Both the position numbers and the translations under genes were made by a program. This document shows, piece after piece, positions 1 through 22,518 of a stretch of DNA of 22,518 nucleotides. This DNA is from Giardia intestinalis (taxonomy: Eukaryota): the NCBI GenBank assembly GCA_000002435.2, contig AACB03000010.1; one strand, given 5' to 3'. Position 1 is the first letter of the stretch; the number at the start of each line of letters is the position of its first letter. A model generated the notes under the pieces. That model made no database searches. It worked only from the letters and a program-made list of their open reading frames with translations, and was not told where the DNA came from.

Positions 1-928
1 GAGGTACCAGCGGGGCCGGCCGATGGGCACGTGCTGCCACTGCAAGCAGCCCTTCCTTCCCAGGCACCATCTGGTGTGCAAGGCCATTAACGGGATTCAC
101 GTGCGCGGCACGACAAGATTCTGGACGCCCTGCTCGCGTGCTCCCGCGGTCGCGCTGGGTCTGTTGTGCGCAATCCCACGATCCCAGTGGATCACCTCCA
201 GCCTGACCTTGTCATCGGTGGGGGCTTCGGGGACTTGGTGGTCACTGTCCCGTGGAGGCTGGAGCGGTCCTATGCCCTGAAGGCCGCCAAGTATCGCCCC
301 TCGTGCTCCAGGGGCGGGCGGCCCACATCCTCCCCGTCGTGGTCGGTGCTGACGGCGTCCTGCACCACCTGTCTGCGGCCGGACTCGCGTTCGCCGGCGT
401 GGACCTTGCGCGCTTCATGCAGGAGGCGGCGCAGGTCATCCTCTGGCACTACAGGCTGTCGGCCCTCCTGTACGCTGGGCTGCGAGTGGGAGAGGCCGGT
501 GGCACCGCCCCGCCCCTGCAGTATCCCTGCCGGAACCGGCTCCCAACGAGGCTCGGGCTACTCCTCCTACTCCCCTCACCCCTGCCATGTGGAGCCCTGG
601 CACGTCGCCCTCCGTAGAGATCATGGCCGATCTCAGCCAGCATCCTGATGCGGCAGTCCCTCCTCCCTGGGGTCCTGCTGAGGTCTCCTCCTCGATCACC
701 TGGGGCACCGATCACCCCGCACAGCCGGATGCAAACGAACGCCCAGACCCCTTCATGTGCTCAAGGGCCCCCTCCCCGCCTCCACTGGATGACGACAGCC
801 CCGACGATGCAGGAGCACCCGAGCCGGTGCACAAGGCCCTGCCGTCCTTCTTCAAGCGCGTCGGTCCTCCCAAGCCGCATGCCCCTGATGGCTTCTACCC
901 CTTCAAACGCATCGACACGGGGCGCTAG
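1..928 (+). pseudogene. 3' fragment of the RT/REL-endonuclease ORF. It aligns to 7797..8723 of the full copy. It is truncated by the window start and interrupted by several 1-bp homopolymer indels, so the ORF track shows it broken into three reading frames (23..280, 166..648, 587..928).
   Basis: Near-identical to the C-terminal CCHC/PD-(D/E)xK region and tail of the 1109-aa ORF. Indels are seen at ~124 (g missing), ~295 (c missing) and ~487-500 (extra g's) relative to copy 7797..8723. The stop TAG at 926-928 is conserved. Confidence 0.8.
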
Positions 929-2283
929 TGGTCATGCTTGGGCACCCTGCCCGCTGTCGGCTGCCCCACAGCGCGAACGGACCCCTGGGCCTGCGTGCCG
1001 AGCTGTCTCCCCTGGTACTCCTCGCTCGCACCCGAGGCCTCTTGCCCCTATCATTCGGGTGTGCATCACGTCCAGACACGGTGCGATAGATGCCTAGCCG
1101 CGATGCCATACACACTCGACCAGGCCGGGCCAGGCCGGACGCCCCCCTGGATGGCCAGACACCCGCCCTGCCTACGTTTGGGCACTTCCTCGATGGGACT
1201 CGTCATCTGCCCACGCCGCAGCCCGGTGTTCGTCTGTCTGTCCTCCCGGGCAGCGGCGGTCCTTGGGTGCTGAGTCTGGCGAGCTGGTGCTGGGGGAAGA
1301 GGCTAGCCCCGTGTGTCATTCGTACCATCGCACCGCGCCGTGCTGATCCCCCCATGGAACTGCCCGCCAGTGGCCGCCTCCGGTCCGGGGCGGCACAGCC
1401 CTGGCTCGGGCCATCCTCTGCTGCAGCGCCCCGGTGCCCCCTGGAGAGGATGGCCGGGTGCTATGTGCTACTGAGCCCTCGGGTGCATCGCTTCCCCACT
1501 GCCCCCCCTCATGTACCCACTCTGGGCGCCCCGGTACAGGGAACCTGGTCACTCTGGCCCTGGCCTCCAGGTGCTTGCCCTCCAATGGGCCATCCCTCAT
1601 GCGCCTGTGTTTGCCTGGCCCATTCTCCCCTGCTCCTCTCTACCTCTCCTGCTCGGTCTCCGCTGAGTCGCGGTGACGGCTGTTGACAGTCCCGGCCGGG
1701 CCCCCAGGTTTCGCTCCATACCTGGGCCACATGCCTCCCACCAGCGCTGGCACCACATGGGTTGCTTGTCACAGATGGGACTGGCACGCACAGAAGAATA
1801 TGGCTCCACGGCGCTCTGCCGGTCTGTCCTGAGCTGGCGTCATCAGCCTGGACCCGCCCTTAGGGGGCCTCCTCCATCACCCGTGCCTCCCCACACCACC
1901 TCCTAAGCCGTCAGTCTGCTCTCTCAGGCGTGACCTTCTGTCGGCCTCCTGGGCCGTATGGGACCACCGCCCCGCTGCCCCCGCCATCTTGGCCAGACGC
2001 CTCCGGTGAGCCACCATTCTGGAATAGCACGACACGTGTGGATGGGCTAGCTATGGCGCACGGTCCGCACCCTCCCTTCTCACGGACTCCCGGGGACAGT
2101 CCGGACGCGTCTCCCTTGTCCCCGAATCGGTGGCCCCGGCCGATCCCCATCGTGCATCCTTATATGGGGCACTGCACACACCTGTCCACGCTGTCCCCTT
2201 GGGCCGGCCACAGCTCACCCCGTGTGTCGATGGGCCAGAATTTGGGCTCCCCAAACCCCTCCACCCCAAGCTGTTTCCTCGCC
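929..2283 (+). other. Unique ~1.36-kb non-coding region downstream of the ORF, degenerate copy (candidate 3' UTR segment).
   Basis: Colinear with 8724..10080 and 14200..15556. It contains only short P/R/G-rich ORFs typical of GC-rich non-coding DNA. It has two homopolymer indels relative to the interior copies. Confidence 0.6.
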
Positions 2284-5200
2284 GGTTCTCTGGGCTCGCG
2301 CTTCCCTTTTTAGTGCAACAGCATTATGGTGCCTCGCGTATGTGCGCGGTGCAGTGGGCCGGTCTGTAGGCCTGCCTTTGACTGGAATCCTGGATCCCTG
2401 GGTTTCTGGCCCGACGCGTCGTCTTCTACCCCCCAAACAGGCCTGCACTCTTCTTGGTCCACGGGCTATTTGTCTCTTTGTTTCCGCGGCCCAGGGCCTG
2501 CTGGTTGCGCCGGGGCGACGCTCATGGTGGATTTTATTTTTTCCAAATCCAGAATTTGGGCCTGAAGACCGCCCCCGCAGGGCCTGGAGGATGCGGGGAA
2601 TCGGTCCACCCACACCATGCGCTCGAGCAAAGGCCAAGCACCCACGCCATCACGTCTCATCCAGGACTCCTGCGCCGCCACGGAGGAGGATCGGCACCTT
2701 CGCCATCGATCCTCCAGGATGCCCCCTACCACTCCCCCTCACATGGCACGCCTCCCTCGGGCCTGTATGTCTGCATGCCGCTATGCCCTAACACCGCAGG
2801 CCGCCCTCTCCGCGGATCCACTAACACACAGCCTGCAGCGCCTGGCCCCCTGGCCGTGACCCGCGCGCCCCCGCGCACAGGAGCATACCCCTGGAGCTGG
2901 GGAGAAGGCCCCCCTGGCCGCGCCCCCGCCGCGAGACCACGCGGGCACGGGGCTGGGCGCCCCGGGCGGGCCCTTCCCCTCCGTCGTGAGGCTGCCTCCC
3001 CTCCAATGTCCTTACCGCCTTGCGCGCATATTACGTAGTAAACCGCCTCTGTCTGGTTCTCTGGGCTCGCGCTTCCCTTTTTAGTGCAACAGCATTATGG
3101 TGCCTCGCGTATGTGCGCGGTGCAGTGGGCCGGTCTGTAGGCCTGCCTTTGACTGGAATCCTGGATCCCTGGGTTTCTGGCCCGACGCGTCGTCTTCTAC
3201 CCCCCAAACAGGCCTGCACTCTTCTTGGTCCACGGGCTATTTGTCTCTTTGTTTCCGCGGCCCAGGGCCTGCTGGTTGCGCCGGGGCGACGCTCATGGTG
3301 GATTTTATTTTTTCCAAAATCCAGAATTTGGGCCTGAAGACCGCCCCCGCAGGGCCTGGAGGATGCGGGGAATCGGTCCACCCACACCATGCGCTCGAGC
3401 AAAGGCCAAGCACCCACGCCATCACGTCTCATCCAGGACTCCTGCGCCGCCACGGAGGAGGATCGGCACCTTCGCCATCGATCCTCCAGGATGCCCCCCT
3501 ACCACTCCCCCTCACATGGCACGCCTCCCTCGGGCCTGTATGTCTGCATGCCGCTATGCCCTAACACCGCAGGCCGCCCTCTCCGCGGATCCACTAACAC
3601 ACAGCCTGCAGCGCCTGGCCCCCCTGGCCGTGACCCGCGCGCCCCCGCGCACAGGAGCATACCCCTGGAGCTGGGGAGAAGGCCCCCCTGGCCGCGCCCC
3701 CGCCGCGAGACCACGCGGGCACGGGGGCTGGGCGCCCCGGGCGGGCCCTTCCCCTCCGTCGTGAGGCTGCCTCCCCTCCAATGTCCTTACCGCCTTGCGC
3801 GCATATTACGTAGTAAACCGCCTCTGTCTGGTTCTCTGGGCTCGCGCTTCCCTTTTTAGTGCAACAGCATTATGGTGCCTCGCGTATGTGCGCGGTGCAG
3901 TGGGCCGGTCTGTAGGCCTGCCTTTGACTGGAATCCTGGATCCCTGGGTTTCTGGCCCGACGCGTCGTCTTCTACCCCCCAAACAGGCCTGCACTCTTCT
4001 TGGTCCACGGGCTATTTGTCTCTTTGTTTCCGCGGCCCAGGGCCTGCTGGTTGCGCCGGGGCGACGCTCATGGTGGATTTTATTTTTTCCAAAATCCAGA
4101 ATTTGGGCCTGAAGACCGCCCCCGCAGGGCCTGGAGGATGCGGGGAATCGGTCCACCCACACCATGCGCTCGAGCAAAGGCCAAGCACCCACGCCATCAC
4201 GTCTCATCCAGGACTCCTGCGCCGCCACGGAGGAGGATCGGCACCTTCGCCATCGATCCTCCAGGATGCCCCCCTACCACTCCCCCTCACATGGCACGCC
4301 TCCCTCGGGCCTGTATGTCTGCATGCCGCTATGCCCTAACACCGCAGGCCGCCCTCTCCGCGGATCCACTAACACACAGCCTGCAGCGCCTGGCCCCCCT
4401 GGCCGTGACCCGCGCGCCCCCGCGCACAGGAGCATACCCCTGGAGCTGGGGAGAAGGCCCCCCTGGCCGCGCCCCCGCCGCGAGACCACGCGGGCACGGG
4501 GGCTGGGCGCCCCGGGCGGGCCCTTCCCCTCCGTCGTGAGGCTGCCTCCCCTCCAATGTCCTTACCGCCTTGCGCGCATATTACGTAGTAAACCGCCTCT
4601 GTCTGGTTCTCTGGGCTCGCGCTTCCCTTTTTAGTGCAACAGCATTATGGTGCCTCGCGTATGTGCGCGGTGCAGTGGGCCGGTCTGTAGGCCTGCCTTT
4701 GACTGGAATCCTGGATCCCTGGGTTTCTGGCCCGACGCGTCGTCTTCTACCCCCCAAACAGGCCTGCACTCTTCTTGGTCCACGGGCTATTTGTCTCTTT
4801 GTTTCCGCGGCCCAGGGCCTGCTGGTTGCGCCGGGGCGACGCTCATGGTGGATTTTATTTTTTCCAAAATCCAGAATTTGGGCCTGAAGACCGCCCCCGC
4901 AGGGCCTGGAGGATGCGGGGAATCGGTCCACCCACACCATGCGCTCGAGCAAAGGCCAAGCACCCACGCCATCACGTCTCATCCAGGACTCCTGCGCCGC
5001 CACGGAGGAGGATCGGCACCTTCGCCATCGATCCTCCAGGATGCCCCCCTACCACTCCCCCTCACATGGCACGCCTCCCTCGGGCCTGTATGTCTGCATG
5101 CCGCTATGCCCTAACACCGCAGGCCGCCCTCTCCGCGGATCCACTAACACACAGCCTGCAGCGCCTGGCCCCCCTGGCCGTGACCCGCGCGCCCCCGCGC

Positions 5201-5372
5201 ACAGGAGCATACCCCTGGAGCTGGGGAGAAGGCCCCCCTGGCCGCGCCCCCGCCGCGAGACCACGCGGGCACGGGGGCTGGGCGCCCCGGGCGGGCCCTT
5301 CCCCTCCGTCGTGAGGCTGCCTCCCCTCCAATGTCCTTACCGCCTTGCGCGCATATTACGTAGTAAACCGCC
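2284..5372 (+). repeat. Tandem array of four 775-bp monomers. The units are 2284-3054 (771 bp with 4 homopolymer deletions), 3055-3829, 3830-4604 and 4605-5372 (the terminal unit, lacking the last 7 bp 'tctgtct').
   Basis: Exact 775-bp periodicity is seen in identical strings and in the ORF-track repeats at 3020/3795/4570. Each unit starts 'ggttctctgggctcgcgcttccc' and ends 'cgcgcatattacgtagtaaaccgcc' + 'tctgtct'. Confidence 0.95.
5362..5367 (+). promoter_or_regulatory. AGTAAA hexamer (a poly(A)-signal variant; it also fits the AGTRAAY consensus as AGTAAAC), 8 nt upstream of the A16 tract.
   Basis: The sequence reads 'tacgtAGTAAAccgcccct(a)16'. The same hexamer ends every 775-bp monomer. It is a known functional variant of AATAAA, and its position fits a cleavage/polyadenylation site. 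Confidence 0.45.
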
Positions 5373-5375
5373 CCT

Positions 5376-5391
5376 AAAAAAAAAAAAAAAA
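5376..5391 (+). other. Pure A16 tract. It is either the poly(A) tail of the upstream element or an A-rich initiator located 2 nt upstream of the ATG.
   Basis: Homopolymer of 16 A between 'taaaccgcccct' and 'ccATG'. The length is identical at all three unit junctions. Confidence 0.9.
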
Positions 5392-5393
5392 CC

Positions 5394-8300
5394 ATGCGTT
5401 CCGCCCTTTCCGCGCCTTCGGGAACCACGGAGATCGGGGCTTCCTCAGGCCCAGAGCCTCCCAACCACGCTCCAACCGACTCCCACAGGCCCCTACCTAG
5501 GGGCACTCCCGATCCTATGACGCTGGGTGACGGCAACGATGCCTCGACGACCGCCATGGCCCGGCCTTCCTCTTGCGAGCCCCTCTGCGGCTCCCACGGG
5601 CCCCCATCCCCCCAGCCTGGGCCTGGCAACAGCCGTTCCGCCACGGACAACTCTCCCAATGAGTCTTCTCCTGTCCATGGCTTACAGGGCTCCGGGGCCT
5701 CGGTGGCCCGGGACGCCTCTCCTCCCTGCCTGTCGAACGACCTTCTGCCCTGTGGCCAGGAGCCCCTCCCGATTCCCGACGACGGCCTCCCATACGACCT
5801 GGGCCACGACAACTCCCCGTCCATCACGGACGAGCAGGAGGCCCGGGGCGCAGACCTGCCTGCTCCTGGGGGCCGTACGACTGTCTGCGAGCGCTGCGGA
5901 GAGGTGCTGCCTGACTCTGCGGCGATCGATGTCCACATCGGGATGCACCATCCGCCTCCCGGTTCACCTTCTCCGTCGCGCAGCCCTTCTCCGCTGTCGG
6001 GGTCTGCCCCTCCACCTGCAGCCGCCGAGCCCTCTCCCTCGCCAACGCCGGACCCTGTGTTCCCGTATGCATGCAGCATGTGCCGGGCCCGATACAAAAC
6101 GGAGAGGGGGCTGAAGGCCCATATCGCCAGGCTCGGCCACTACCTCCCGCTCGACGCCACAGTCCCCGAGCGCATCGGGGTGCCTAGTGGCAGCCCGTCC
6201 CCTGAGCTGCTTCGCCTCCTCACTGACGTATTCACAGAGATGGCGGGGCGCCTTCCTCCTGTAGAGGCCCTAGCGCGCTTCCTCTCGACGTGCCGCCGCA
6301 TGGAGGGCTCTGGACGGCTCCCCCCGGCGCAGTCGCTTCTCCGGAAGGGGCTGCTCGGCCGGGCATGGCAGGCGCTGTTGAGCGAGACGTCCTCTGCCGC
6401 CAGGGTCCCCGAGCCCCAGGGCAAGGAGCGGGAAGCGATTGTCCATGAGCTCCACCCGCGCCCCATGCCTGTCTCTCTGCCCCCCGTCCATCACGTGCTC
6501 GGCCCGTCGCCCAAGATAACGGCCAAGGCGCTGCTGAAGGAGCTGCAGGCGATGAGGCCTGTCGCGGCCGGACCCTCTGGGCTGGGGAAGCCTCACCTCC
6601 TGCACCTTTGTGGGGCCGCCGGGGCTGCGGAGCTCTTCACCTCTGTCCTGACGACCCTCTTCTCCAGCAGGAACTGGGCCCAGCTCCAGCCCCTGTGCGA
6701 GTTCAGGCTGAAGCTTCTGCCCAAGTCTGGCGGCCGATGGCGCCCTATCGCAGTGCAGGAGACGCTTCTGGTCGCCTTCCACCGCTTGCTCCTGCGTCGG
6801 ACTCCCGCGCTCCGCAAGCTCCCGGCGTGGCAGCTGGCCTTTGAGCACCTCGCCCAGATGAAGGCGATCCGCGCGGCCGAGGAGCTGAAGAGGACACACC
6901 ACCTGCTCACGGTGGATGTGCGGAATGCCTTCAACAGCGTCCCGCATTCCGTCATCCTCTTTGCGCTCCGCCGGGCAGGGGTGGTCCAGCCGACCGTCGC
7001 GTACATTGAGTCGTTCCTCGCGGCTCGGCACTCCTCGGACCTCCCCGCGGTCCCAGCGGGCGTGCCACAGGGGGACCCGCTGTCCATGGCGATGTTCTGC
7101 CAGAGCCTTGTCTGGCCGGTGGAGACGTACCTCGGCCAGTACAAGGTCGTTGCATACGCCGACGACCTCGTCATTGCGTCAGAGGAGGCGATTCCCATAG
7201 ATACCGTGAAGAGTGACGCGCAGTCTGCCCTCTCCCGCATAGGGCTCACGGTCGAGCTCTCGAAGTGCTCCTCGACCCAGGCCGGGGCGATCTCCTTCAT
7301 GGGCACCCGCGTGCTCAAGCACTCCTCCTTCAACCTCGCGCAGACATCGGCCCGCCGGCTCCACGAGCATCTCGCCGTCCTCCGTGCTTCGGGTCTCTCA
7401 CTCCACGACCGCCTCAGGCTCCTGTCTGCCTGCGTCGTCCCTGCAGTTAACTATGGACCCCTTGTTGACGACTACCCGGGCCCGTCCCCCTATGCCGACG
7501 TCGATGCGCAGATAGTGGAGGAGGTCGCGACCCTTCTGGAGATCCCCGAACCCCTTGCGAAGACCCTTGCTCTGACGCCCCGCGCGAAGTACGGCCTCGG
7601 ACTGGTGCTGCCCCATCACTACTACGACGAGATGCACAGGCAGCGCCAGGACATGAAGGCGGGCGTCTTCCGCGAGCTGAGGAAGAAGCGCCTGCAGGAC
7701 ACGGCCGCGCTCCGATCCTTCCTGCCGCTCGCATTGCTGGGCTGCGCACCCCTGGACAACACGCAGGTCCTGTTCATAGGGGACTGCTTGGCGGGGAGGT
7801 ACCAGCGGGGCCGGCCGATGGGCACGTGCTGCCACTGCAAGCAGCCCTTCCTTCCCAGGCACCATCTGGTGTGCAAGGCCATTAACGGGATTCACGTGGC
7901 GCGGCACGACAAGATTCTGGACGCCCTGCTCGCGTGCTCCCGCGGTCGCGCTGGGTCTGTTGTGCGCAATCCCACGATCCCAGTGGATCACCTCCAGCCT
8001 GACCTTGTCATCGGTGGGGGCTTCGGGGACTTGGTGGTCACTGTCCCGTGGAGGCTGGAGCGGTCCTATGCCCTGAAGGCCGCCAAGTATCGCCCCCTCG
8101 TGCTCCAGGGGCGGGCGGCCCACATCCTCCCCGTCGTGGTCGGTGCTGACGGCGTCCTGCACCACCTGTCTGCGGCCGGACTCGCGTTCGCCGGCGTGGA
8201 CCTTGCGCGCTTCATGCAGGAGGCGGCGCAGGTCATCCTCTGGCACTACAGGCTGTCGGCCCTCCTGTACGCTGGGCTGCGAGTGGAGAGGCCGGTGCAC

Positions 8301-8723
8301 CGCCCCGCCCCTGCAGTATCCCTGCCGGAACCGGCTCCCAACGAGGCTCGGGCTACTCCTCCTACTCCCCTCACCCCTGCCATGTGGAGCCCTGGCACGT
8401 CGCCCTCCGTAGAGATCATGGCCGATCTCAGCCAGCATCCTGATGCGGCAGTCCCTCCTCCCTGGGGTCCTGCTGAGGTCTCCTCCTCGATCACCTGGGG
8501 CACCGATCACCCCGCACAGCCGGATGCAAACGAACGCCCAGACCCCTTCATGTGCTCAAGGGCCCCCTCCCCGCCTCCACTGGATGACGACAGCCCCGAC
8601 GATGCAGGAGCACCCGAGCCGGTGCACAAGGCCCTGCCGTCCTTCTTCAAGCGCGTCGGTCCTCCCAAGCCGCATGCCCCTGATGGCTTCTACCCCTTCA
8701 AACGCATCGACACGGGGCGCTAG
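5394..8723 (+). CDS. Non-LTR retrotransposon polyprotein (1109 aa). It has an N-terminal S/P-rich region, 2x C2H2 zinc finger, reverse transcriptase, a CCHC motif and a REL (PD-(D/E)xK) endonuclease. The C-terminal ~150 aa is a P-rich extension.
   Basis: Intact RT motifs are present: LPKSGGRWRPIAV (motifs 1/2), LLTVDVRNAFNSVPH (A), AGVPQGDPLSMAMF (B'), VVAYADDLVIAS (C, YADD at 7155..7166), LTVELSKCS (D). CCHC 'CCHCKQPFLPRHHLVC' is followed by 'RHDKIL'. The endonuclease segment reads 'QPDLVIGGGFGDLVVTVPWRLERSYALKAAKY', matching the R2-type PDLV...D-V-T-V...K..KY pattern. The ATG sits immediately after the A16 tract. Antisense ORFs are low-complexity. Confidence 0.9.
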   Translation: MRSALSAPSGTTEIGASSGPEPPNHAPTDSHRPLPRGTPDPMTLGDGNDASTTAMARPSSCEPLCGSHGPPSPQPGPGNSRSATDNSPNESSPVHGLQGSGASVARDASPPCLSNDLLPCGQEPLPIPDDGLPYDLGHDNSPSITDEQEARGADLPAPGGRTTVCERCGEVLPDSAAIDVHIGMHHPPPGSPSPSRSPSPLSGSAPPPAAAEPSPSPTPDPVFPYACSMCRARYKTERGLKAHIARLGHYLPLDATVPERIGVPSGSPSPELLRLLTDVFTEMAGRLPPVEALARFLSTCRRMEGSGRLPPAQSLLRKGLLGRAWQALLSETSSAARVPEPQGKEREAIVHELHPRPMPVSLPPVHHVLGPSPKITAKALLKELQAMRPVAAGPSGLGKPHLLHLCGAAGAAELFTSVLTTLFSSRNWAQLQPLCEFRLKLLPKSGGRWRPIAVQETLLVAFHRLLLRRTPALRKLPAWQLAFEHLAQMKAIRAAEELKRTHHLLTVDVRNAFNSVPHSVILFALRRAGVVQPTVAYIESFLAARHSSDLPAVPAGVPQGDPLSMAMFCQSLVWPVETYLGQYKVVAYADDLVIASEEAIPIDTVKSDAQSALSRIGLTVELSKCSSTQAGAISFMGTRVLKHSSFNLAQTSARRLHEHLAVLRASGLSLHDRLRLLSACVVPAVNYGPLVDDYPGPSPYADVDAQIVEEVATLLEIPEPLAKTLALTPRAKYGLGLVLPHHYYDEMHRQRQDMKAGVFRELRKKRLQDTAALRSFLPLALLGCAPLDNTQVLFIGDCLAGRYQRGRPMGTCCHCKQPFLPRHHLVCKAINGIHVARHDKILDALLACSRGRAGSVVRNPTIPVDHLQPDLVIGGGFGDLVVTVPWRLERSYALKAAKYRPLVLQGRAAHILPVVVGADGVLHHLSAAGLAFAGVDLARFMQEAAQVILWHYRLSALLYAGLRVERPVHRPAPAVSLPEPAPNEARATPPTPLTPAMWSPGTSPSVEIMADLSQHPDAAVPPPWGPAEVSSSITWGTDHPAQPDANERPDPFMCSRAPSPPPLDDDSPDDAGAPEPVHKALPSFFKRVGPPKPHAPDGFYPFKRIDTGR
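5886..5952 (+). other. C2H2 zinc finger 1 (C-x2-C-x12-H-x3-H): CERCGEVLPDSAAIDVHIGMHH.
   Basis: Spacing of the Cys/His residues in the translated ORF. Confidence 0.75.
6072..6140 (+). other. C2H2 zinc finger 2 (C-x2-C-x12-H-x5-H): CSMCRARYKTERGLKAHIARLGH.
   Basis: Spacing of the Cys/His residues. It is separated from ZF1 by an SP-rich linker (SPSPSRSPSPLSGS...). Confidence 0.7.
6700..7320 (+). other. Reverse-transcriptase core (motifs 1 to E).
   Basis: LPK at 6717-6725, YADD at 7155-7166, FMGTRV at 7296-7313. Confidence 0.85.
7827..8090 (+). other. CCHC zinc motif plus restriction-enzyme-like (PD-(D/E)xK) endonuclease domain.
   Basis: tgc tgc cac tgc at 7827-7838, PD at 7998-8003, D of 'GDLVVTV' at 8028-8030, K..KY at ~8076-8090. 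Confidence 0.8.
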
Positions 8724-10848: not shown

Positions 10849-10851
10849 CCT

Positions 10852-10867
10852 AAAAAAAAAAAAAAAA
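10852..10867 (+). other. A16 tract at the unit junction.
   Basis: 16 A's, followed by 'cc' and then ATG at 10870. Confidence 0.9.
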
Positions 10868-10869
10868 CC

Positions 10870-15556: not shown

Positions 15557-18500
15557 GGTTCTCTGGGCTCGCGCTTCCCTTTTTAGTGCAACAGCATTAT
15601 GGTGCCTCGCGTATGTGCGCGGTGCAGTGGGCCGGTCTGTAGGCCTGCCTTTGACTGGAATCCTGGATCCCTGGGTTTCTGGCCCGACGCGTCGTCTTCT
15701 ACCCCCCAAACAGGCCTGCACTCTTCTTGGTCCACGGGCTATTTGTCTCTTTGTTTCCGCGGCCCAGGGCCTGCTGGTTGCGCCGGGGCGACGCTCATGG
15801 TGGATTTTATTTTTTCCAAAATCCAGAATTTGGGCCTGAAGACCGCCCCCGCAGGGCCTGGAGGATGCGGGGAATCGGTCCACCCACACCATGCGCTCGA
15901 GCAAAGGCCAAGCACCCACGCCATCACGTCTCATCCAGGACTCCTGCGCCGCCACGGAGGAGGATCGGCACCTTCGCCATCGATCCTCCAGGATGCCCCC
16001 CTACCACTCCCCCTCACATGGCACGCCTCCCTCGGGCCTGTATGTCTGCATGCCGCTATGCCCTAACACCGCAGGCCGCCCTCTCCGCGGATCCACTAAC
16101 ACACAGCCTGCAGCGCCTGGCCCCCCTGGCCGTGACCCGCGCGCCCCCGCGCACAGGAGCATACCCCTGGAGCTGGGGAGAAGGCCCCCCTGGCCGCGCC
16201 CCCGCCGCGAGACCACGCGGGCACGGGGGCTGGGCGCCCCGGGCGGGCCCTTCCCCTCCGTCGTGAGGCTGCCTCCCCTCCAATGTCCTTACCGCCTTGC
16301 GCGCATATTACGTAGTAAACCGCCTCTGTCTGGTTCTCTGGGCTCGCGCTTCCCTTTTTAGTGCAACAGCATTATGGTGCCTCGCGTATGTGCGCGGTGC
16401 AGTGGGCCGGTCTGTAGGCCTGCCTTTGACTGGAATCCTGGATCCCTGGGTTTCTGGCCCGACGCGTCGTCTTCTACCCCCCAAACAGGCCTGCACTCTT
16501 CTTGGTCCACGGGCTATTTGTCTCTTTGTTTCCGCGGCCCAGGGCCTGCTGGTTGCGCCGGGGCGACGCTCATGGTGGATTTTATTTTTTCCAAAATCCA
16601 GAATTTGGGCCTGAAGACCGCCCCCGCAGGGCCTGGAGGATGCGGGGAATCGGTCCACCCACACCATGCGCTCGAGCAAAGGCCAAGCACCCACGCCATC
16701 ACGTCTCATCCAGGACTCCTGCGCCGCCACGGAGGAGGATCGGCACCTTCGCCATCGATCCTCCAGGATGCCCCCCTACCACTCCCCCTCACATGGCACG
16801 CCTCCCTCGGGCCTGTATGTCTGCATGCCGCTATGCCCTAACACCGCAGGCCGCCCTCTCCGCGGATCCACTAACACACAGCCTGCAGCGCCTGGCCCCC
16901 CTGGCCGTGACCCGCGCGCCCCCGCGCACAGGAGCATACCCCTGGAGCTGGGGAGAAGGCCCCCCTGGCCGCGCCCCCGCCGCGAGACCACGCGGGCACG
17001 GGGGCTGGGCGCCCCGGGCGGGCCCTTCCCCTCCGTCGTGAGGCTGCCTCCCCTCCAATGTCCTTACCGCCTTGCGCGCATATTACGTAGTAAACCGCCT
17101 CTGTCTGGTTCTCTGGGCTCGCGCTTCCCTTTTTAGTGCAACAGCATTATGGTGCCTCGCGTATGTGCGCGGTGCAGTGGGCCGGTCTGTAGGCCTGCCT
17201 TTGACTGGAATCCTGGATCCCTGGGTTTCTGGCCCGACGCGTCGTCTTCTACCCCCCAAACAGGCCTGCACTCTTCTTGGTCCACGGGCTATTTGTCTCT
17301 TTGTTTCCGCGGCCCAGGGCCTGCTGGTTGCGCCGGGGCGACGCTCATGGTGGATTTTATTTTTTCCAAAATCCAGAATTTGGGCCTGAAGACCGCCCCC
17401 GCAGGGCCTGGAGGATGCGGGGAATCGGTCCACCCACACCATGCGCTCGAGCAAAGGCCAAGCACCCACGCCATCACGTCTCATCCAGGACTCCTGCGCC
17501 GCCACGGAGGAGGATCGGCACCTTCGCCATCGATCCTCCAGGATGCCCCCCTACCACTCCCCCTCACATGGCACGCCTCCCTCGGGCCTGTATGTCTGCA
17601 TGCCGCTATGCCCTAACACCGCAGGCCGCCCTCTCCGCGGATCCACTAACACACAGCCTGCAGCGCCTGGCCCCCCTGGCCGTGACCCGCGCGCCCCCGC
17701 GCACAGGAGCATACCCCTGGAGCTGGGGAGAAGGCCCCCCTGGCCGCGCCCCCGCCGCGAGACCACGCGGGCACGGGGGCTGGGCGCCCCGGGCGGGCCC
17801 TTCCCCTCCGTCGTGAGGCTGCCTCCCCTCCAATGTCCTTACCGCCTTGCGCGCATATTACGTAGTAAACCGCCTCTGTCTGGTTCTCTGGGCTCGCGCT
17901 TCCCTTTTTAGTGCAACAGCATTATGGTGCCTCGCGTATGTGCGCGGTGCAGTGGGCCGGTCTGTAGGCCTGCCTTTGACTGGAATCCTGGATCCCTGGG
18001 TTTCTGGCCCGACGCGTCGTCTTCTACCCCCCAAACAGGCCTGCACTCTTCTTGGTCCACGGGCTATTTGTCTCTTTGTTTCCGCGGCCCAGGGCCTGCT
18101 GGTTGCGCCGGGGCGACGCTCATGGTGGATTTTATTTTTTCCAAAATCCAGAATTTGGGCCTGAAGACCGCCCCCGCAGGGCCTGGAGGATGCGGGGAAT
18201 CGGTCCACCCACACCATGCGCTCGAGCAAAGGCCAAGCACCCACGCCATCACGTCTCATCCAGGACTCCTGCGCCGCCACGGAGGAGGATCGGCACCTTC
18301 GCCATCGATCCTCCAGGATGCCCCCCTACCACTCCCCCTCACATGGCACGCCTCCCTCGGGCCTGTATGTCTGCATGCCGCTATGCCCTAACACCGCAGG
18401 CCGCCCTCTCCGCGGATCCACTAACACACAGCCTGCAGCGCCTGGCCCCCCTGGCCGTGACCCGCGCGCCCCCGCGCACAGGAGCATACCCCTGGAGCTG

Positions 18501-18649
18501 GGGAGAAGGCCCCCCTGGCCGCGCCCCCGCCGCGAGACCACGCGGGCACGGGGGCTGGGCGCCCCGGGCGGGCCCTTCCCCTCCGTCGTGAGGCTGCCTC
18601 CCCTCCAATGTCCTTACCGCCTTGCGCGCATATTACGTAGTAAACCGCC
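15557..18649 (+). repeat. Tandem array of four 775-bp monomers: 15557-16331, 16332-17106, 17107-17881 and 17882-18649 (terminal, 768 bp).
   Basis: Exact periodicity. ORF-track repeats are seen at 16297/17072/17847. Confidence 0.95.
18639..18644 (+). promoter_or_regulatory. AGTAAA poly(A)-signal-like hexamer, 8 nt before the A16 tract.
   Basis: Same context as the other junctions. Confidence 0.45.
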
Positions 18650-18652
18650 CCT

Positions 18653-18668
18653 AAAAAAAAAAAAAAAA
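18653..18668 (+). other. A16 tract at the unit junction.
   Basis: 16 A's, followed by 'cc' and then ATG at 18671. Confidence 0.9.
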
Positions 18669-18670
18669 CC

Positions 18671-21600
18671 ATGCGTTCCGCCCTTTCCGCGCCTTCGGGA
18701 ACCACGGAGATCGGGGCTTCCTCAGGCCCAGAGCCTCCCAACCACGCTCCAACCGACTCCCACAGGCCCCTACCTAGGGGCACTCCCGATCCTATGACGC
18801 TGGGTGACGGCAACGATGCCTCGACGACCGCCATGGCCCGGCCTTCCTCTTGCGAGCCCCTCTGCGGCTCCCACGGGCCCCCATCCCCCCAGCCTGGGCC
18901 TGGCAACAGCCGTTCCGCCACGGACAACTCTCCCAATGAGTCTTCTCCTGTCCATGGCTTACAGGGCTCCGGGGCCTCGGTGGCCCGGGACGCCTCTCCT
19001 CCCTGCCTGTCGAACGACCTTCTGCCCTGTGGCCAGGAGCCCCTCCCGATTCCCGACGACGGCCTCCCATACGACCTGGGCCACGACAACTCCCCGTCCA
19101 TCACGGACGAGCAGGAGGCCCGGGGCGCAGACCTGCCTGCTCCTGGGGGCCGTACGACTGTCTGCGAGCGCTGCGGAGAGGTGCTGCCTGACTCTGCGGC
19201 GATCGATGTCCACATCGGGATGCACCATCCGCCTCCCGGTTCACCTTCTCCGTCGCGCAGCCCTTCTCCGCTGTCGGGGTCTGCCCCTCCACCTGCAGCC
19301 GCCGAGCCCTCTCCCTCGCCAACGCCGGACCCTGTGTTCCCGTATGCATGCAGCATGTGCCGGGCCCGATACAAAACGGAGAGGGGGCTGAAGGCCCATA
19401 TCGCCAGGCTCGGCCACTACCTCCCGCTCGACGCCACAGTCCCCGAGCGCATCGGGGTGCCTAGTGGCAGCCCGTCCCCTGAGCTGCTTCGCCTCCTCAC
19501 TGACGTATTCACAGAGATGGCGGGGCGCCTTCCTCCTGTAGAGGCCCTAGCGCGCTTCCTCTCGACGTGCCGCCGCATGGAGGGCTCTGGACGGCTCCCC
19601 CCGGCGCAGTCGCTTCTCCGGAAGGGGCTGCTCGGCCGGGCATGGCAGGCGCTGTTGAGCGAGACGTCCTCTGCCGCCAGGGTCCCCGAGCCCCAGGGCA
19701 AGGAGCGGGAAGCGATTGTCCATGAGCTCCACCCGCGCCCCATGCCTGTCTCTCTGCCCCCCGTCCATCACGTGCTCGGCCCGTCGCCCAAGATAACGGC
19801 CAAGGCGCTGCTGAAGGAGCTGCAGGCGATGAGGCCTGTCGCGGCCGGACCCTCTGGGCTGGGGAAGCCTCACCTCCTGCACCTTTGTGGGGCCGCCGGG
19901 GCTGCGGAGCTCTTCACCTCTGTCCTGACGACCCTCTTCTCCAGCAGGAACTGGGCCCAGCTCCAGCCCCTGTGCGAGTTCAGGCTGAAGCTTCTGCCCA
20001 AGTCTGGCGGCCGATGGCGCCCTATCGCAGTGCAGGAGACGCTTCTGGTCGCCTTCCACCGCTTGCTCCTGCGTCGGACTCCCGCGCTCCGCAAGCTCCC
20101 GGCGTGGCAGCTGGCCTTTGAGCACCTCGCCCAGATGAAGGCGATCCGCGCGGCCGAGGAGCTGAAGAGGACACACCACCTGCTCACGGTGGATGTGCGG
20201 AATGCCTTCAACAGCGTCCCGCATTCCGTCATCCTCTTTGCGCTCCGCCGGGCAGGGGTGGTCCAGCCGACCGTCGCGTACATTGAGTCGTTCCTCGCGG
20301 CTCGGCACTCCTCGGACCTCCCCGCGGTCCCAGCGGGCGTGCCACAGGGGGACCCGCTGTCCATGGCGATGTTCTGCCAGAGCCTTGTCTGGCCGGTGGA
20401 GACGTACCTCGGCCAGTACAAGGTCGTTGCATACGCCGACGACCTCGTCATTGCGTCAGAGGAGGCGATTCCCATAGATACCGTGAAGAGTGACGCGCAG
20501 TCTGCCCTCTCCCGCATAGGGCTCACGGTCGAGCTCTCGAAGTGCTCCTCGACCCAGGCCGGGGCGATCTCCTTCATGGGCACCCGCGTGCTCAAGCACT
20601 CCTCCTTCAACCTCGCGCAGACATCGGCCCGCCGGCTCCACGAGCATCTCGCCGTCCTCCGTGCTTCGGGTCTCTCACTCCACGACCGCCTCAGGCTCCT
20701 GTCTGCCTGCGTCGTCCCTGCAGTTAACTATGGACCCCTTGTTGACGACTACCCGGGCCCGTCCCCCTATGCCGACGTCGATGCGCAGATAGTGGAGGAG
20801 GTCGCGACCCTTCTGGAGATCCCCGAACCCCTTGCGAAGACCCTTGCTCTGACGCCCCGCGCGAAGTACGGCCTCGGACTGGTGCTGCCCCATCACTACT
20901 ACGACGAGATGCACAGGCAGCGCCAGGACATGAAGGCGGGCGTCTTCCGCGAGCTGAGGAAGAAGCGCCTGCAGGACACGGCCGCGCTCCGATCCTTCCT
21001 GCCGCTCGCATTGCTGGGCTGCGCACCCCTGGACAACACGCAGGTCCTGTTCATAGGGGACTGCTTGGCGGGGAGGTACCAGCGGGGCCGGCCGATGGGC
21101 ACGTGCTGCCACTGCAAGCAGCCCTTCCTTCCCAGGCACCATCTGGTGTGCAAGGCCATTAACGGGATTCACGTGGCGCGGCACGACAAGATTCTGGACG
21201 CCCTGCTCGCGTGCTCCCGCGGTCGCGCTGGGTCTGTTGTGCGCAATCCCACGATCCCAGTGGATCACCTCCAGCCTGACCTTGTCATCGGTGGGGGCTT
21301 CGGGGACTTGGTGGTCACTGTCCCGTGGAGGCTGGAGCGGTCCTATGCCCTGAAGGCCGCCAAGTATCGCCCCCTCGTGCTCCAGGGGCGGGCGGCCCAC
21401 ATCCTCCCCGTCGTGGTCGGTGCTGACGGCGTCCTGCACCACCTGTCTGCGGCCGGACTCGCGTTCGCCGGCGTGGACCTTGCGCGCTTCATGCAGGAGG
21501 CGGCGCAGGTCATCCTCTGGCACTACAGGCTGTCGGCCCTCCTGTACGCTGGGCTGCGAGTGGAGAGGCCGGTGCACCGCCCCGCCCCTGCAGTATCCCT

Positions 21601-22000
21601 GCCGGAACCGGCTCCCAACGAGGCTCGGGCTACTCCTCCTACTCCCCTCACCCCTGCCATGTGGAGCCCTGGCACGTCGCCCTCCGTAGAGATCATGGCC
21701 GATCTCAGCCAGCATCCTGATGCGGCAGTCCCTCCTCCCTGGGGTCCTGCTGAGGTCTCCTCCTCGATCACCTGGGGCACCGATCACCCCGCACAGCCGG
21801 ATGCAAACGAACGCCCAGACCCCTTCATGTGCTCAAGGGCCCCCTCCCCGCCTCCACTGGATGACGACAGCCCCGACGATGCAGGAGCACCCGAGCCGGT
21901 GCACAAGGCCCTGCCGTCCTTCTTCAAGCGCGTCGGTCCTCCCAAGCCGCATGCCCCTGATGGCTTCTACCCCTTCAAACGCATCGACACGGGGCGCTAG
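18671..22000 (+). CDS. Non-LTR retrotransposon RT/REL-endonuclease polyprotein, third full copy (1109 aa, identical translation).
   Basis: The ORF-track protein is identical to the other two copies. Confidence 0.9.
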   Translation: MRSALSAPSGTTEIGASSGPEPPNHAPTDSHRPLPRGTPDPMTLGDGNDASTTAMARPSSCEPLCGSHGPPSPQPGPGNSRSATDNSPNESSPVHGLQGSGASVARDASPPCLSNDLLPCGQEPLPIPDDGLPYDLGHDNSPSITDEQEARGADLPAPGGRTTVCERCGEVLPDSAAIDVHIGMHHPPPGSPSPSRSPSPLSGSAPPPAAAEPSPSPTPDPVFPYACSMCRARYKTERGLKAHIARLGHYLPLDATVPERIGVPSGSPSPELLRLLTDVFTEMAGRLPPVEALARFLSTCRRMEGSGRLPPAQSLLRKGLLGRAWQALLSETSSAARVPEPQGKEREAIVHELHPRPMPVSLPPVHHVLGPSPKITAKALLKELQAMRPVAAGPSGLGKPHLLHLCGAAGAAELFTSVLTTLFSSRNWAQLQPLCEFRLKLLPKSGGRWRPIAVQETLLVAFHRLLLRRTPALRKLPAWQLAFEHLAQMKAIRAAEELKRTHHLLTVDVRNAFNSVPHSVILFALRRAGVVQPTVAYIESFLAARHSSDLPAVPAGVPQGDPLSMAMFCQSLVWPVETYLGQYKVVAYADDLVIASEEAIPIDTVKSDAQSALSRIGLTVELSKCSSTQAGAISFMGTRVLKHSSFNLAQTSARRLHEHLAVLRASGLSLHDRLRLLSACVVPAVNYGPLVDDYPGPSPYADVDAQIVEEVATLLEIPEPLAKTLALTPRAKYGLGLVLPHHYYDEMHRQRQDMKAGVFRELRKKRLQDTAALRSFLPLALLGCAPLDNTQVLFIGDCLAGRYQRGRPMGTCCHCKQPFLPRHHLVCKAINGIHVARHDKILDALLACSRGRAGSVVRNPTIPVDHLQPDLVIGGGFGDLVVTVPWRLERSYALKAAKYRPLVLQGRAAHILPVVVGADGVLHHLSAAGLAFAGVDLARFMQEAAQVILWHYRLSALLYAGLRVERPVHRPAPAVSLPEPAPNEARATPPTPLTPAMWSPGTSPSVEIMADLSQHPDAAVPPPWGPAEVSSSITWGTDHPAQPDANERPDPFMCSRAPSPPPLDDDSPDDAGAPEPVHKALPSFFKRVGPPKPHAPDGFYPFKRIDTGR

Positions 22001-22518
22001 TGGTCATGCTTGGGCACCCTGCCCGCTGTCGCTGCCCCACAGCGCGAACGGACCCTGGGCCTGCGTGCCGAGCTGTCTCCCCTGGTACTCCTCGCTCGCA
22101 CCCGAGGCCTCTTGCCCCTATCATTCGGGTGTGCATCACGTCCAGACACGGTGCGATAGATGCCTAGCCGCGATGCCATACACACTCGACCAGGCCGGCC
22201 AGGCCGGACGCCCCCCTGGATGGCCAGACACCCGCCCTGCCTACGTTTGGGCACTTTCCTCGATGGACTCGTCATCTGCCCACGCCGCAGCCCGGTGTTC
22301 GTCTGTCTGTCCTCCCGGGCAGCGGCGGTCCTTGGGTGCTGAGTCTGGCGAGCTGGTGCTGGGGAAGAGGCTAGCCCCGTGTGTCATTCGTACCATCGCA
22401 CCGCGCCGTGCTGATCCCCCATGGAACTGCCCGCCAGTGGCCGCCTCCGGTCCGGGGCGGCAACAGCCCTGGCTCGGGCCATCCCTCTGCTGCAGCGCCC
22501 CGGTGCCCCCTGGAGAGG
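22001..22518 (+). other. Post-ORF unique region, truncated by the window end. It carries ~8 single-base indels relative to 8724..9241.
   Basis: Aligns to the start of the 1357-bp region. Example differences: gtcgctgcc vs gtcggctgcc, gaccctggg vs gacccctggg, ggcggcaacagcc vs ggcggcacagcc. Confidence 0.7.

What the first reader, a model, noticed from the sequence alone, without database searches (positions are those of the whole stretch)
1..22518. Window is a pure head-to-tail array of a REL-endonuclease non-LTR retrotransposon with no intervening host DNA
There are four consecutive units in the same orientation. Each has the A16 tract of one unit abutting (2 nt) the ATG of the next, and no unrelated sequence lies between them. 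Known examples of this organisation are telomere-associated arrays (HeT-A/TART in Drosophila; GilM/GilT in Giardia, which also belong to the REL-endo/R2-like group) and site-specific insertions into tandem satellites (Genie-1 in a ~771-bp repeat). The 775-bp monomer, the single ORF with ZF-RT-CCHC-REL layout, and the AGTAAAC + short-gap + poly(A) architecture all fit a Giardia GilM/GilT/Genie-like element. That match rests on memory of the literature only. If the + strand is the sense strand and the array is terminal, the chromosome end would lie to the left of the window.
Basis: partly seen in the sequence, partly recalled or inferred. Interest (0 to 1): 0.8.

Follow-up and report, generated by a model that had tools for sequence, protein, structure and literature searches.

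The report
Known Giardia GilM/Genie-1 retrotransposon tandem array

Summary
The 22,518 bases are four same-strand units with nothing between them: two complete (5,476 and 7,801 bp) and two cut by the window ends. All three junctions read AGTAAAC-CGCCCCT-A16-CC-ATG. Each unit has one 1,109-aa ORF, a 1,357-bp unique 3' UTR, and one or four copies of a 775-bp monomer.

The interpretation also holds. The ORF has two C2H2 fingers, a reverse transcriptase, a CCHC motif and a PD-(D/E)xK endonuclease. Its best sequence and fold matches are R2 proteins. It is 100% identical to Giardia WB proteins and to AAL47180.1, deposited in 2001. Published Genie-1 primers match exactly. The 2020 WB genome paper describes about four GilM copies of 5,474 bp at the 5' end of chromosome 5.

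New detail:
- The units differ only by 19 single-base indels near the window edges, so the assembly may be a collapsed consensus.
- The monomer is the 3' end of the UTR, not a host satellite. It carries the only poly(A) signals.
- The same A-run/ATG junction recurs in six relatives.

Telomeric position cannot be tested, because the window holds no TAGGG repeats. Verdict: already known, low interest.

The parts
1..5391 (+). Unit 0, cut at its 5' side by the window edge. It holds the ORF remnant (1-928), the unique 3' UTR (929-2283), about four 775-bp monomers (2284-5375) and A16 (5376-5391).
   Evidence: It aligns end to end with the tail of unit 2 with 0 substitutions and 10 single-base homopolymer indels, all in 103-2949.
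5392..10867 (+). Unit 1, complete at 5,476 bp. It consists of CC, the ORF, the 1,357-bp unique 3' UTR, one 775-bp monomer and A16.
   Evidence: Its first 5,455 bases are identical to unit 2. The length fits the 5,474-bp GilM copy in PMC7000408.
10868..18668 (+). Unit 2, complete at 7,801 bp. It is the same as unit 1 but carries four monomers (2,325 bp = 3 x 775 more).
18669..22518 (+). Unit 3, cut by the window end. It holds a full ORF and the first 518 bp of the 3' UTR.
   Evidence: It aligns to unit 1 with 0 substitutions and 9 single-base indels, all in 22031-22483.
5394..8723 (+). ORF of 1,109 aa. It has two C2H2 zinc fingers (C165-H185 and C227-H249), a reverse transcriptase (about 376-640, with D508 and YADD at 588-591), a CCHC motif (C812, C815, H823/824, C827), and a restriction-like endonuclease (R837-H838-D839, P869-D870, D879, K895/K898). 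Identical copies lie at 10870-14199 and 18671-22000.
   Evidence: Against an 88%-identical relative, substitutions fall 60/50/184 by codon position, which indicates purifying selection.
10870..14199 (+). Second copy of the 1,109-aa ORF.
18671..22000 (+). Third copy of the 1,109-aa ORF.
8724..10080 (+). Unique part of the 3' UTR (1,357 bp). It has no conserved second ORF. The same segment occurs at 929-2283 and 14200-15556, and partly at 22001-22518.
   Evidence: The 198-aa ORF at 8885-9481 is broken by frameshifts and stops in the 88% relative. Its substitutions fall 21/22/27 by codon position.
15557..18652 (+). Array of four 775-bp monomers forming the 3' end of the UTR of unit 2. The last copy lacks its final 4 nt. 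Equivalent arrays lie at 2284-5375 (four copies) and 10081-10851 (one copy).
   Evidence: The exact 775-nt periodicity runs over 15557-18649. Internal joints read AAACCGCCTCTGTCT|GGTTCTC, while the terminal end reads AAACCGCCCCT + A16.
10081..10851 (+). The single 775-bp monomer of unit 1.
2284..5375 (+). Four monomers of unit 0. The first measures 771 bp because of four single-base deletions.
10838..10872 (+). Junction between units: Giardia poly(A) signal AGTAAAC (10838-10844), 7-nt spacer, A16 (10852-10867), CC, then the ATG of the next unit. Identical junctions lie at 5362-5396 and 18639-18673.
   Evidence: The consensus signal AGT[A/G]AA[T/C] is given in PMC1872034.
10700..10795 (+). GC-rich block near the 3' end (GGCCCCCCTGGCCGCGCCCCCGCC...GGGCGCCCCGGGCGGGCCCTTCCCCTCC), present once in every monomer. 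It is conserved across relatives more strongly than the coding sequence.
   Evidence: The block shows 76-92% nucleotide identity, against 67-75% for the ORF. See the alignment. The predicted hairpin is no more stable than shuffles, z = -0.45.

Best explanation
The window is a tandem head-to-tail array of GilM (also called Genie-1), a non-LTR retrotransposon of Giardia intestinalis assemblage A, isolate WB. It most probably comes from the region near the 5' end of chromosome 5.

Shown here:
- Each unit is one transcription-sized module. It runs from a 2-nt leader (CC), through a single ORF for an R2-like protein, to a long 3' UTR.
- The protein has two C2H2 fingers, a reverse transcriptase, a CCHC motif and a restriction-like endonuclease.
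- The last 775 nt of the UTR are present one or four times.
- Each unit ends in a canonical Giardia poly(A) signal and an A-run.

Inferred:
- The element copies itself by target-primed reverse transcription, as R2 does. The endonuclease nicks DNA, and the reverse transcriptase extends from the nick on the polyadenylated RNA.
- Every junction seen here and in relatives joins an A-run to a full-length 5' end. The preferred target is therefore probably the A(n)/CCATG boundary of a resident copy. Such an insertion would regenerate that boundary on both sides.
- The A-run and the AT-rich AGTAAAC region of the upstream copy are, besides one T-rich patch inside each monomer, the only AT-rich patches in this 67% G+C sequence, and they lie right at the next ATG. 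They probably act as the Giardia-type initiator for the downstream copy.
- The poly(A) signal is repeated at each monomer end. This, or unequal exchange between monomers, could explain units with one versus four monomers.
- The complete identity of the copies points to very recent amplification, homogenisation by recombination, or consensus collapse in the assembly.
For: Identity:
- The ORF is 100% identical to Giardia WB proteins KAE8301202-4. It is also 100% identical to AAL47180.1 over 1,068 of 1,068 residues.
- Genie-1 primers from PMC1950533 match exactly at 6652-6669 (+) and 6952-6969 (-).
- Xu et al. 2020 report about four GilM copies of 5,474 bp at the 5' end of chromosome 5. Read depth there is 1,800x against 200x genome-wide.

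Protein:
- Pfam finds RVT_1 (E = 4e-21) and a C2H2 finger.
- The best PDB sequence matches are R2 proteins. The match is collinear across the fingers, the RT and the CCHC-RH-PD region.
- The seven best Foldseek matches are R2 complexes caught in target-primed reverse transcription. They align over 817-1,138 columns with E = 6e-20 to 4e-15. LINE-1 ORF2p scores about 1e-9 and aligns over fewer columns (602-754).
- The catalytic residues are invariant in 23 homologues.

Array and junctions:
- AGTRAAY occurs 9 times on the + strand, only at monomer ends, and never on the - strand. AT-rich patches occur only at the A16 junctions and once per monomer.
- The same signal/A-run/2-3 nt/ATG junction is found in six relatives, with A-runs of 6 to 12. 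One of these contigs has neighbouring elements only 69-70% identical to each other.
- The relative checked for internal repeats (L001) has none, so the junction does not depend on the 775-bp repeat.

Giardia background: promoters are short AT-rich initiators with very short leaders (PMC1885649). The poly(A) signal consensus is in PMC1872034.
Against: - Telomeric position is not shown by the window, which has no TAGGG or CCCTA repeats.
- No target-site duplication or flanking target is available, so the insertion site is inferred only from self-junctions.
- Identical A16 tracts at all three junctions, and zero substitutions in 22.5 kb, are not what independent retrotransposition events usually leave. 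They fit recombination or assembly collapse better.
- Contigs of relatives built from short reads show only the majority junction, so 5'-truncated copies could be hidden.
- The promoter role of the A-run, the choice of poly(A) site and the endonuclease target are all untested.
- The correspondence of names (GilM versus GilT, Genie-1 versus Genie-1A) could not be checked. The two founding papers are not in the library. One later paper writes 'Giardia Genie (GilT)'.
Confidence: 0.93

Rival explanations
1. The 775-bp repeat is a host satellite, and the element is a site-specific insertion into it. This is my recollection of the reading by Burke et al. 2002, given as 771 bp. On this view the element proper runs only from CCATG to the end of the unique 3' region and has no poly(A) tail.
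For: [quoted passage not shown] RLE-bearing elements are typically specific for repeated targets (PMC4640811). The window does hold runs of monomers between ORFs.
Against: - The A16 tract sits 7 nt after a canonical Giardia poly(A) signal at the end of the last monomer. Uninterrupted monomer-monomer joints have no A-run. The tail is therefore attached to the monomer, which places the monomer inside the transcript.
- On the satellite model, the A16 would have to be an untemplated addition at the 5' junction, and identical three times.
- Unit 1 has exactly one monomer, so that monomer is simply the last 775 nt of the UTR.
- Relatives keep the signal/A-run/ATG junction. The P15 relative does so without any internal tandem repeat.
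- The GC-rich block conserved across relatives lies inside the monomer.
Confidence: 0.1
2. The present copies were produced or homogenised by unequal sister-chromatid exchange or gene conversion within the array, not by separate retrotransposition events. Retrotransposition only seeded the array.
For: There are zero substitutions among four units over 22.5 kb, and the A16 length is identical at all three junctions. Monomer number changes in whole steps of 775 bp, as expected from out-of-register exchange.
Against: A contig from another assemblage has neighbouring elements of different subfamilies (69-70% identity), and an RT-less 2.4-kb element, joined by the same A-run/ATG junction. Recombination within one family cannot produce that. 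A-run length differs between isolates and lineages, from 6 to 16. Identity of copies may also be an assembly effect.
Confidence: 0.4
3. The exact arrangement (four units carrying 4, 1 and 4 monomers, all identical) is partly an assembly product. It may be a consensus of more copies than are shown.
For: All 19 differences between units are single-base indels, nearly all in short homopolymer runs. All lie within about 3 kb of the left edge or 0.5 kb of the right edge, a typical pattern for poorly polished long-read contig ends. Xu et al. report 1,800x depth here against 200x genome-wide, implying at least 9 copies. They also report that the largest unassembled piece adjoins this region.
Against: The unit structure, the junction and the 5.47-kb length are reproduced in independent assemblies (L005 at 5,474 bp and 99.8% identity, and L006). 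Only copy number and order are in doubt, not the nature of the element.
Confidence: 0.35

Closest known systems
GilM / Genie-1 of Giardia intestinalis (Arkhipova and Morrison 2001; Burke et al. 2002; GENIE clade)
   Same: The protein is identical to AAL47180.1. Published Genie-1 primers match exactly. The unit length is 5,476 bp against the published 5,474 bp, and about four copies are reported in isolate WB. The array is head to tail in one orientation with unusually long 3' UTRs, as described in PMC5537684.
   Different: Nothing of substance differs. The window adds a precise account of the 1-versus-4 monomer variants. Which published name applies (GilM or GilT, Genie-1 or Genie-1A) rests on Xu et al. 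2020 and on the primers, because the founding papers could not be read.
R2 elements of animals (R2Bm, R2Tg; structures 8gh6, 8ibw, 9nl2, 9nl3, 9dou)
   Same: Both have a single ORF with N-terminal C2H2 fingers, a central RT, and a C-terminal CCHC motif plus a PD-(D/E)xK endonuclease. R2 gives the best sequence and full-length fold matches. A conserved 3'-terminal UTR block parallels the 3' UTR that the R2 protein binds.
   Different: Identity is only 15-17%. R2 inserts into 28S rDNA and has no poly(A) tail, whereas this element ends in a poly(A) signal and an A-run and sits next to copies of itself. No HDV-like ribozyme or any other Rfam family was found.
HeT-A / TART / TAHRE telomeric arrays of Drosophila
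   Same: Both form head-to-tail arrays in one orientation with long 3' UTRs. In both, the 3' end of the upstream copy may drive the downstream copy. For HeT-A this promoter arrangement is stated from general knowledge. For GilM it is inferred.
   Different: The Drosophila elements belong to the Jockey clade. By my recollection, they use an APE-type endonuclease or none, and their copies are variably 5'-truncated. Here the endonuclease is restriction-like and all junctions seen are full length. Giardia also keeps telomerase repeats.
CRE/SLACS/CZAR and NeSL, other early-branching RLE elements
   Same: They share the RLE, CCHC and zinc-finger architecture and a specificity for repeated targets. 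One study places GilM and GilT in the CRE clade by RT (PMC10088271).
   Different: Those elements target spliced-leader or other genes. No phylogeny was run here, so clade placement rests on the literature.

Membership tests
GilM / Genie-1 (Giardia) | Protein sequence identical or nearly identical to the deposited element protein | tested here: met
   1,068 of 1,068 residues are identical to AAL47180.1. The ORF is 100% identical to KAE8301202-4 of G. intestinalis WB.
GilM / Genie-1 (Giardia) | Unit of about 5.5 kb with a single ORF and a long 3' UTR | tested here: met
   The minimal unit is 5,476 bp, against 5,474 bp in PMC7000408. The second ORF candidate was rejected.
GilM / Genie-1 (Giardia) | Published Genie-1 primers anneal | tested here: met
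   Both 18-mers match exactly in all three ORF copies, 318 bp apart.
GilM / Genie-1 (Giardia) | Head-to-tail tandem arrays, all in one orientation | tested here: met
   Four units lie on the + strand with three identical junctions. This is the arrangement described in PMC5537684.
GilM / Genie-1 (Giardia) | Association with a repeat of about 771 bp | tested here: met
The monomer is 775 bp and occurs 1 to 4 times per unit.
GilM / Genie-1 (Giardia) | Position between subtelomeric DNA and (TAGGG)n, with the 5' end towards the chromosome end | not testable with these tools
   The window has no TAGGG or CCCTA repeat and no host flank. Literature places it at the 5' end of chromosome 5. In a relative's contig, the array lies at the contig end with host genes on the poly(A) side.
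Non-LTR retrotransposons with restriction-like endonuclease (R2, R4, CRE, NeSL, GENIE) | Reverse transcriptase domain with a catalytic YxDD motif | tested here: met
   RVT_1 scores E = 3.8e-21 over residues 443-639. D508 and Y588-A-D-D591 are invariant.
Non-LTR retrotransposons with restriction-like endonuclease (R2, R4, CRE, NeSL, GENIE) | C-terminal CCHC motif followed by a PD-(D/E)xK endonuclease, and no APE domain | tested here: met
   C812, C815, H823/824, C827, R837-H838, P869-D870, D879 and K895/K898 are invariant. They align to the same motifs of R2. The fold match to R2 (817-1,138 aligned columns) is long enough to take in the C-terminal region. Pfam finds no Exo_endo_phos domain.
Non-LTR retrotransposons with restriction-like endonuclease (R2, R4, CRE, NeSL, GENIE) | N-terminal zinc finger(s) | tested here: met
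   There are two C2H2 fingers, C165-H185 and C227-H249.
Non-LTR retrotransposons with restriction-like endonuclease (R2, R4, CRE, NeSL, GENIE) | RT groups with RLE clades in a phylogeny | not tested
   No reference set of R2, R4, CRE or NeSL reverse transcriptases was available. The literature treats GENIE as one of five ancient RLE clades or places it within CRE.
Non-LTR retrotransposons with restriction-like endonuclease (R2, R4, CRE, NeSL, GENIE) | Sequence-specific insertion site | tested here: inconclusive
   Every junction examined (three in the window and seven in six relatives' loci) joins an A-run to a full-length 5' end. No empty target site is available.
HeT-A/TART-type terminal healing arrays (works-like comparison only) | Variable 5' truncation of array members, caused by terminal erosion before the next addition | tested here: not met
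   All three window junctions are full length. A single 5'-truncated copy was seen in L002, at the distal side of the array.

The most novel reading that the evidence does not exclude
The array may be a self-sustaining circuit with three linked properties:
- The poly(A) tail left by one insertion, together with the AT-rich poly(A) signal, becomes the Giardia-type initiator that transcribes the next copy from a 2-nt leader.
- The endonuclease targets that same A(n)/CCATG boundary, so each insertion recreates its own promoter and its own target.
- The poly(A) signals repeated in the 775-bp monomers yield RNA isoforms that are fixed as 1-monomer or 4-monomer copies.

Parts of this may already have been proposed in the 2001 paper, which I could not read.
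Probability: 0.25. Interest if true: 0.4.

Novelty: already known. Interest (0 to 1): 0.12.

Why it matters
GilM and GilT are textbook cases of retrotransposons that live at chromosome ends in an early-branching eukaryote that still has telomerase. They inform ideas on how Drosophila-type retrotransposon telomeres arose and how early non-LTR elements chose their targets. This window adds no new kind of element.

Its practical value is narrower:
- It gives a clean dissection of the unit.
- It argues that the 775-bp repeat belongs to the 3' UTR.
- It warns that the copy number and the perfect identity of copies in the reference assembly may be artefacts.

Tried and rejected
- Tandem Repeats Finder found nothing. 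Its longest period is 500, so the 775-bp period was established with the repeat finder and a script instead.
- A second protein in the 3' UTR (198-aa ORF at 8885-9481, called as a gene in a relative's contig) was rejected. It has frameshifts and stops in the 88% relative and shows no codon-position bias. The many other ORFs on both strands are most likely an effect of 67% G+C.
- A conserved RNA structure in the 3' block was not supported. RNAalifold draws a long hairpin with a few compensatory pairs, but the fold is no more stable than shuffles, z = -0.45.
- Rfam, including self-cleaving ribozymes of the kind R2 uses, gave no match at E <= 1.
- The window has no telomere repeats.
- An exact-match scan of metagenome contigs for the monomer end gave 0 hits. 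A protein-based scan gave 11 short, distant loci (23-42% identity) with no A-runs, and these were not pursued.
- The proximal end of the array in L002 has no clean poly(A)/host junction, so it gave no information on the original target.
- The exact-sequence contig look-up found no record for P0001 or P0025, so the window could not be extended.
- The founding papers (PMC64710, PMC1151983) are not held.
- A simple G-quadruplex regex found 1 motif per strand in unit 1. This does not reproduce the 27 reported with another method in PMC10088271.

Full report
**Observation.** The window is 67% G+C, and its + strand is C-rich throughout. It holds three identical 1,109-aa ORFs on the + strand, at 5394-8723, 10870-14199 and 18671-22000. 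Runs of 12 or more A occur only at 5376-5391, 10852-10867 and 18653-18668, and none of 100 shuffles had such a run.

Each run is an A16 tract. It is preceded by GTAGTAAACCGCCCCT and followed by CC and then the ATG of the next ORF. There are therefore four units on one strand: unit 0 (1-5391, cut on the left), unit 1 (5392-10867, 5,476 bp), unit 2 (10868-18668, 7,801 bp) and unit 3 (18669-22518, cut on the right).

Unit 0 aligns end to end with the tail of unit 2, and unit 3 aligns with the head of unit 1. No base of the window lies outside the element.

**Fine structure.** After the ORF comes 1,357 bp of unique 3' UTR, then a 775-bp monomer. Periodicity of exactly 775 runs from 15557 to 18649. 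Unit 2 has four monomers, with the last lacking 4 nt. Unit 1 has one, and unit 0 has four. The length difference between units 1 and 2 is 2,325 bp, which is 3 x 775.

Internal monomer joints read AAACCGCCTCTGTCT|GGTTCTC. The terminal monomer ends AAACCGCCCCT followed by A16.

The 771-bp spacing of the first monomer of unit 0 is not a variant repeat. It reflects four single-base deletions.

**Copies are identical, and the window edges look unpolished.** There are no substitutions between units. The only differences are 19 single-base indels, nearly all in short homopolymer runs. Ten lie in 103-2949 and nine in 22031-22483. This is the pattern of poorly polished ends of a long-read contig.

**The protein.**
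- Pfam finds RVT_1 (E = 3.8e-21, residues 443-639) and a C2H2 finger.
- The best sequence matches among solved structures are R2 retrotransposon proteins. Weak collinear stretches also align over the zinc fingers and over the CCHC-RH-PD region.
- An AlphaFold model was built on 23 homologues. Mean pLDDT is 61, with the core at 70-90 and the termini disordered.
- The seven best Foldseek matches to that model are R2 proteins caught in target-primed reverse transcription. They align over 817-1,138 columns with E = 6e-20 to 4e-15. LINE-1 ORF2p follows at about 1e-9 and aligns over fewer columns, 602-754.
- The following residues are invariant across the 23 homologues:
  - two C2H2 fingers (C165/C168/H181/H185 and C227/C230/H243/H249);
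  - D508 and Y588-A-D-D591;
  - the CCHC motif (C812/C815/H823-824/C827);
  - the endonuclease residues R837-H838, P869-D870, D879 and K895/K898.

The ZF-RT-CCHC-RLE layout is therefore confirmed.

The ORF is under purifying selection. Against an 88%-identical relative, substitutions fall 60/50/184 by codon position. A 198-aa ORF in the UTR shows 21/22/27, with frameshifts and stops, so it is spurious. The element has a single ORF.

**Identity.**
- The protein is 100% identical to three consecutively numbered proteins of Giardia intestinalis WB, KAE8301202-4.
- Over residues 42-1109 it is 100% identical to AAL47180.1, a record whose accession series I place in 2001 from memory.
- The two primers published for Genie-1 (PMC1950533) match exactly in every ORF copy.
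- Xu et al. 2020 (PMC7000408) state that the sequence next to the largest unassembled piece, at the 5' end of chromosome 5, holds about four copies of GilM. They give a copy length of 5,474 bp and a read depth of 1,800x against 200x, implying at least nine copies.

Unit length, copy number and the edge error pattern all fit that description. The feature is already known.

I could not read Arkhipova and Morrison 2001 or Ullu et al. 2005. The mapping between the GilM/GilT and Genie-1/1A names therefore rests on Xu et al. and on the primers. One later paper writes 'Giardia Genie (GilT)'.

**Is the 775-bp repeat a host satellite or part of the element?** The Giardia poly(A) signal consensus is AGT[A/G]AA[T/C] (PMC1872034). 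In the window it occurs nine times on the + strand, always at the end of a monomer, and never on the - strand.

The A16 tract begins 7 nt after the signal of the last monomer. Uninterrupted monomer joints have no A-run. The tail is thus attached to the monomer, which places the monomer inside the transcript. Unit 1 carries exactly one monomer, so the monomer is simply the last 775 nt of the UTR, quadruplicated in units 0 and 2.

Relatives retain the same junction:
- L001, Giardia P15, 55% protein identity: AGTAAAT-7 nt-A12-CC-ATG.
- L003: A10-CC-ATG.
- L004: A12-CC-ATG.
- L005, 99.8% identical: A6-CC-ATG.
- L006, 88% identical: A11-CCC-ATG.
- L002: A6-CT-ATG and A7-CCC-ATG.

L001 has no internal tandem repeat. 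I conclude that the repeat belongs to the 3' UTR. I give the satellite-target reading about 0.1.

**How the array forms and works (inference).** By analogy with R2, the endonuclease nicks the target and the reverse transcriptase extends from the nick on the polyadenylated RNA. All ten junctions examined join an A-run to a full-length 5' end. This differs from the variably truncated members that I recall for Drosophila HeT-A/TART arrays. It suggests precise targeting of the A(n)/CCATG boundary of a resident copy, which each insertion would recreate.

In L002, the neighbours are only 69-70% identical to each other. A 2.4-kb element without an RT sits between them, joined by the same junctions. 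Recombination within a single family cannot explain this, so real insertion events next to resident copies must occur.

Against this, the identical A16 tracts and the absence of substitutions in the window fit recent unequal exchange, gene conversion or assembly collapse better than separate events. These processes are not exclusive.

**Promoter inference.** Giardia promoters are short AT-rich initiators at the transcription start, with leaders of a few bases. A second AT-rich element lies about 30 bp upstream (PMC1885649). In this sequence, AT-rich patches exist only at the A16 junction and once per monomer. The A16 tract lies 2 nt before the ATG, and CATATTACGTAGTAAAC lies about 25-40 nt before it.

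The 3' end of each copy probably supplies the promoter of the next. I recall the same being described for HeT-A. This was not tested.

**Conserved 3' block.** The last 100-170 nt before the poly(A) signal are 76-92% identical between relatives whose ORFs are only 67-75% identical at the DNA level. This is what would be expected of the RNA segment recognised by the reverse transcriptase. A predicted hairpin is no more stable than shuffled sequence, z = -0.45. No Rfam family matches.

**Telomere association.** The window has no TAGGG or CCCTA repeats, and it could not be extended.

Indirect support is as follows:
- The literature places GilM and GilT between subtelomeric DNA and the telomere repeats. 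They are oriented so that reverse transcription runs towards the chromosome end.
- Xu et al. place these copies at the 5' (left) end of chromosome 5.
- In L002, the array lies at the contig end with host genes (a RING-finger protein and a VSP) on the poly(A) side.
- The sense strand is C-rich, as is the strand running inward from a left telomere.

**Verdict.** The feature is a known element in a published assembly, so interest is low. The parts worth keeping are the argument that the 775-bp repeat is UTR, the family-wide full-length A-run/ATG junction, and the warning about assembly collapse.

Noticed in passing
window 10325-10346 (also 2528-2548, 3299-3320, 4074-4095, 4849-4870, 15801-15822, 16576-16597, 17351-17372, 18126-18147): Each 775-bp monomer has one T-rich patch, TGGATTTTATTTTTTCCAAAAT. 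On the - strand it reads ATTTTGGAAAAAATAAAATCCA and is followed by CC-ATG and only a 19-codon ORF. It resembles the sense junction (A-run, CC, ATG) and could be an antisense initiator. That would fit the reported sense and antisense small RNAs from Giardia telomeric retroposons (Ullu et al. 2005, as cited in PMC2583053) and the bidirectional AT-rich promoters of PMC1885649.
   Followed up: partly
window 103-2949 and 22031-22483: All 19 differences between units are single-base indels, nearly all in short homopolymer runs, and they cluster at the two window edges. Four of them frameshift the ORF remnant of unit 0. This looks like unpolished long-read contig ends. It suggests the window is a whole small contig or is bounded by assembly gaps.
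   Followed up: yes
L002 4814-7243: A Giardia contig from another assembly (GCA_000498735.1) holds a 2.4-kb element with no reverse transcriptase. It starts CT-ATG just after an A6 run and ends with the conserved 3' block, AGTAAAT and an A7 run. It lies between two RT-bearing elements of different subfamilies. Its first 180 nt resemble the 5' end of another family member at 70% identity. It may be an internally deleted copy or a non-autonomous partner.
   Followed up: partly
L002 about 847-1400 and 12100-12700: The distal element of this array is 5'-truncated, with homology starting near position 700 of the unit, and is preceded by lower-G+C DNA. The proximal element lacks the canonical 3' block and A-run before the host genes begin. 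The edges of the array are therefore not clean insertions.
   Followed up: partly
L005 (SRR17450161) 108-133 and L006 (SRR27608068) 122-152: Independent short-read assemblies give single-unit contigs of 5,474 and 5,509 bp. Both are circular permutations of the unit, with the junction lying inside the contig, and L006 also has a 30-nt end overlap. That is how a tandem array collapses. The spacer and the A-run differ from the window: AGTAAACCCTCTCTC-A6 and AGTAAATACACCTC-A11.
   Followed up: yes
window, both strands, e.g. 7398-8510 (-), 5144-6097 (-), 3097-3564 (+): There are 52 ORFs of 150 aa or more on both strands, including a 370-aa antisense ORF inside the RT gene and repeated 155-179-aa ORFs in the monomers. 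The only one tested, the 198-aa ORF at 8885-9481, is not conserved. The rest are probably by-products of 67% G+C.
   Followed up: partly
L007-L017 (metagenome contigs): Eleven short environmental contigs (37-60% G+C) encode proteins 23-42% identical to the RT-RLE region. None has an A-run of 8 or more. They may be related RLE elements of other protists.
   Followed up: no
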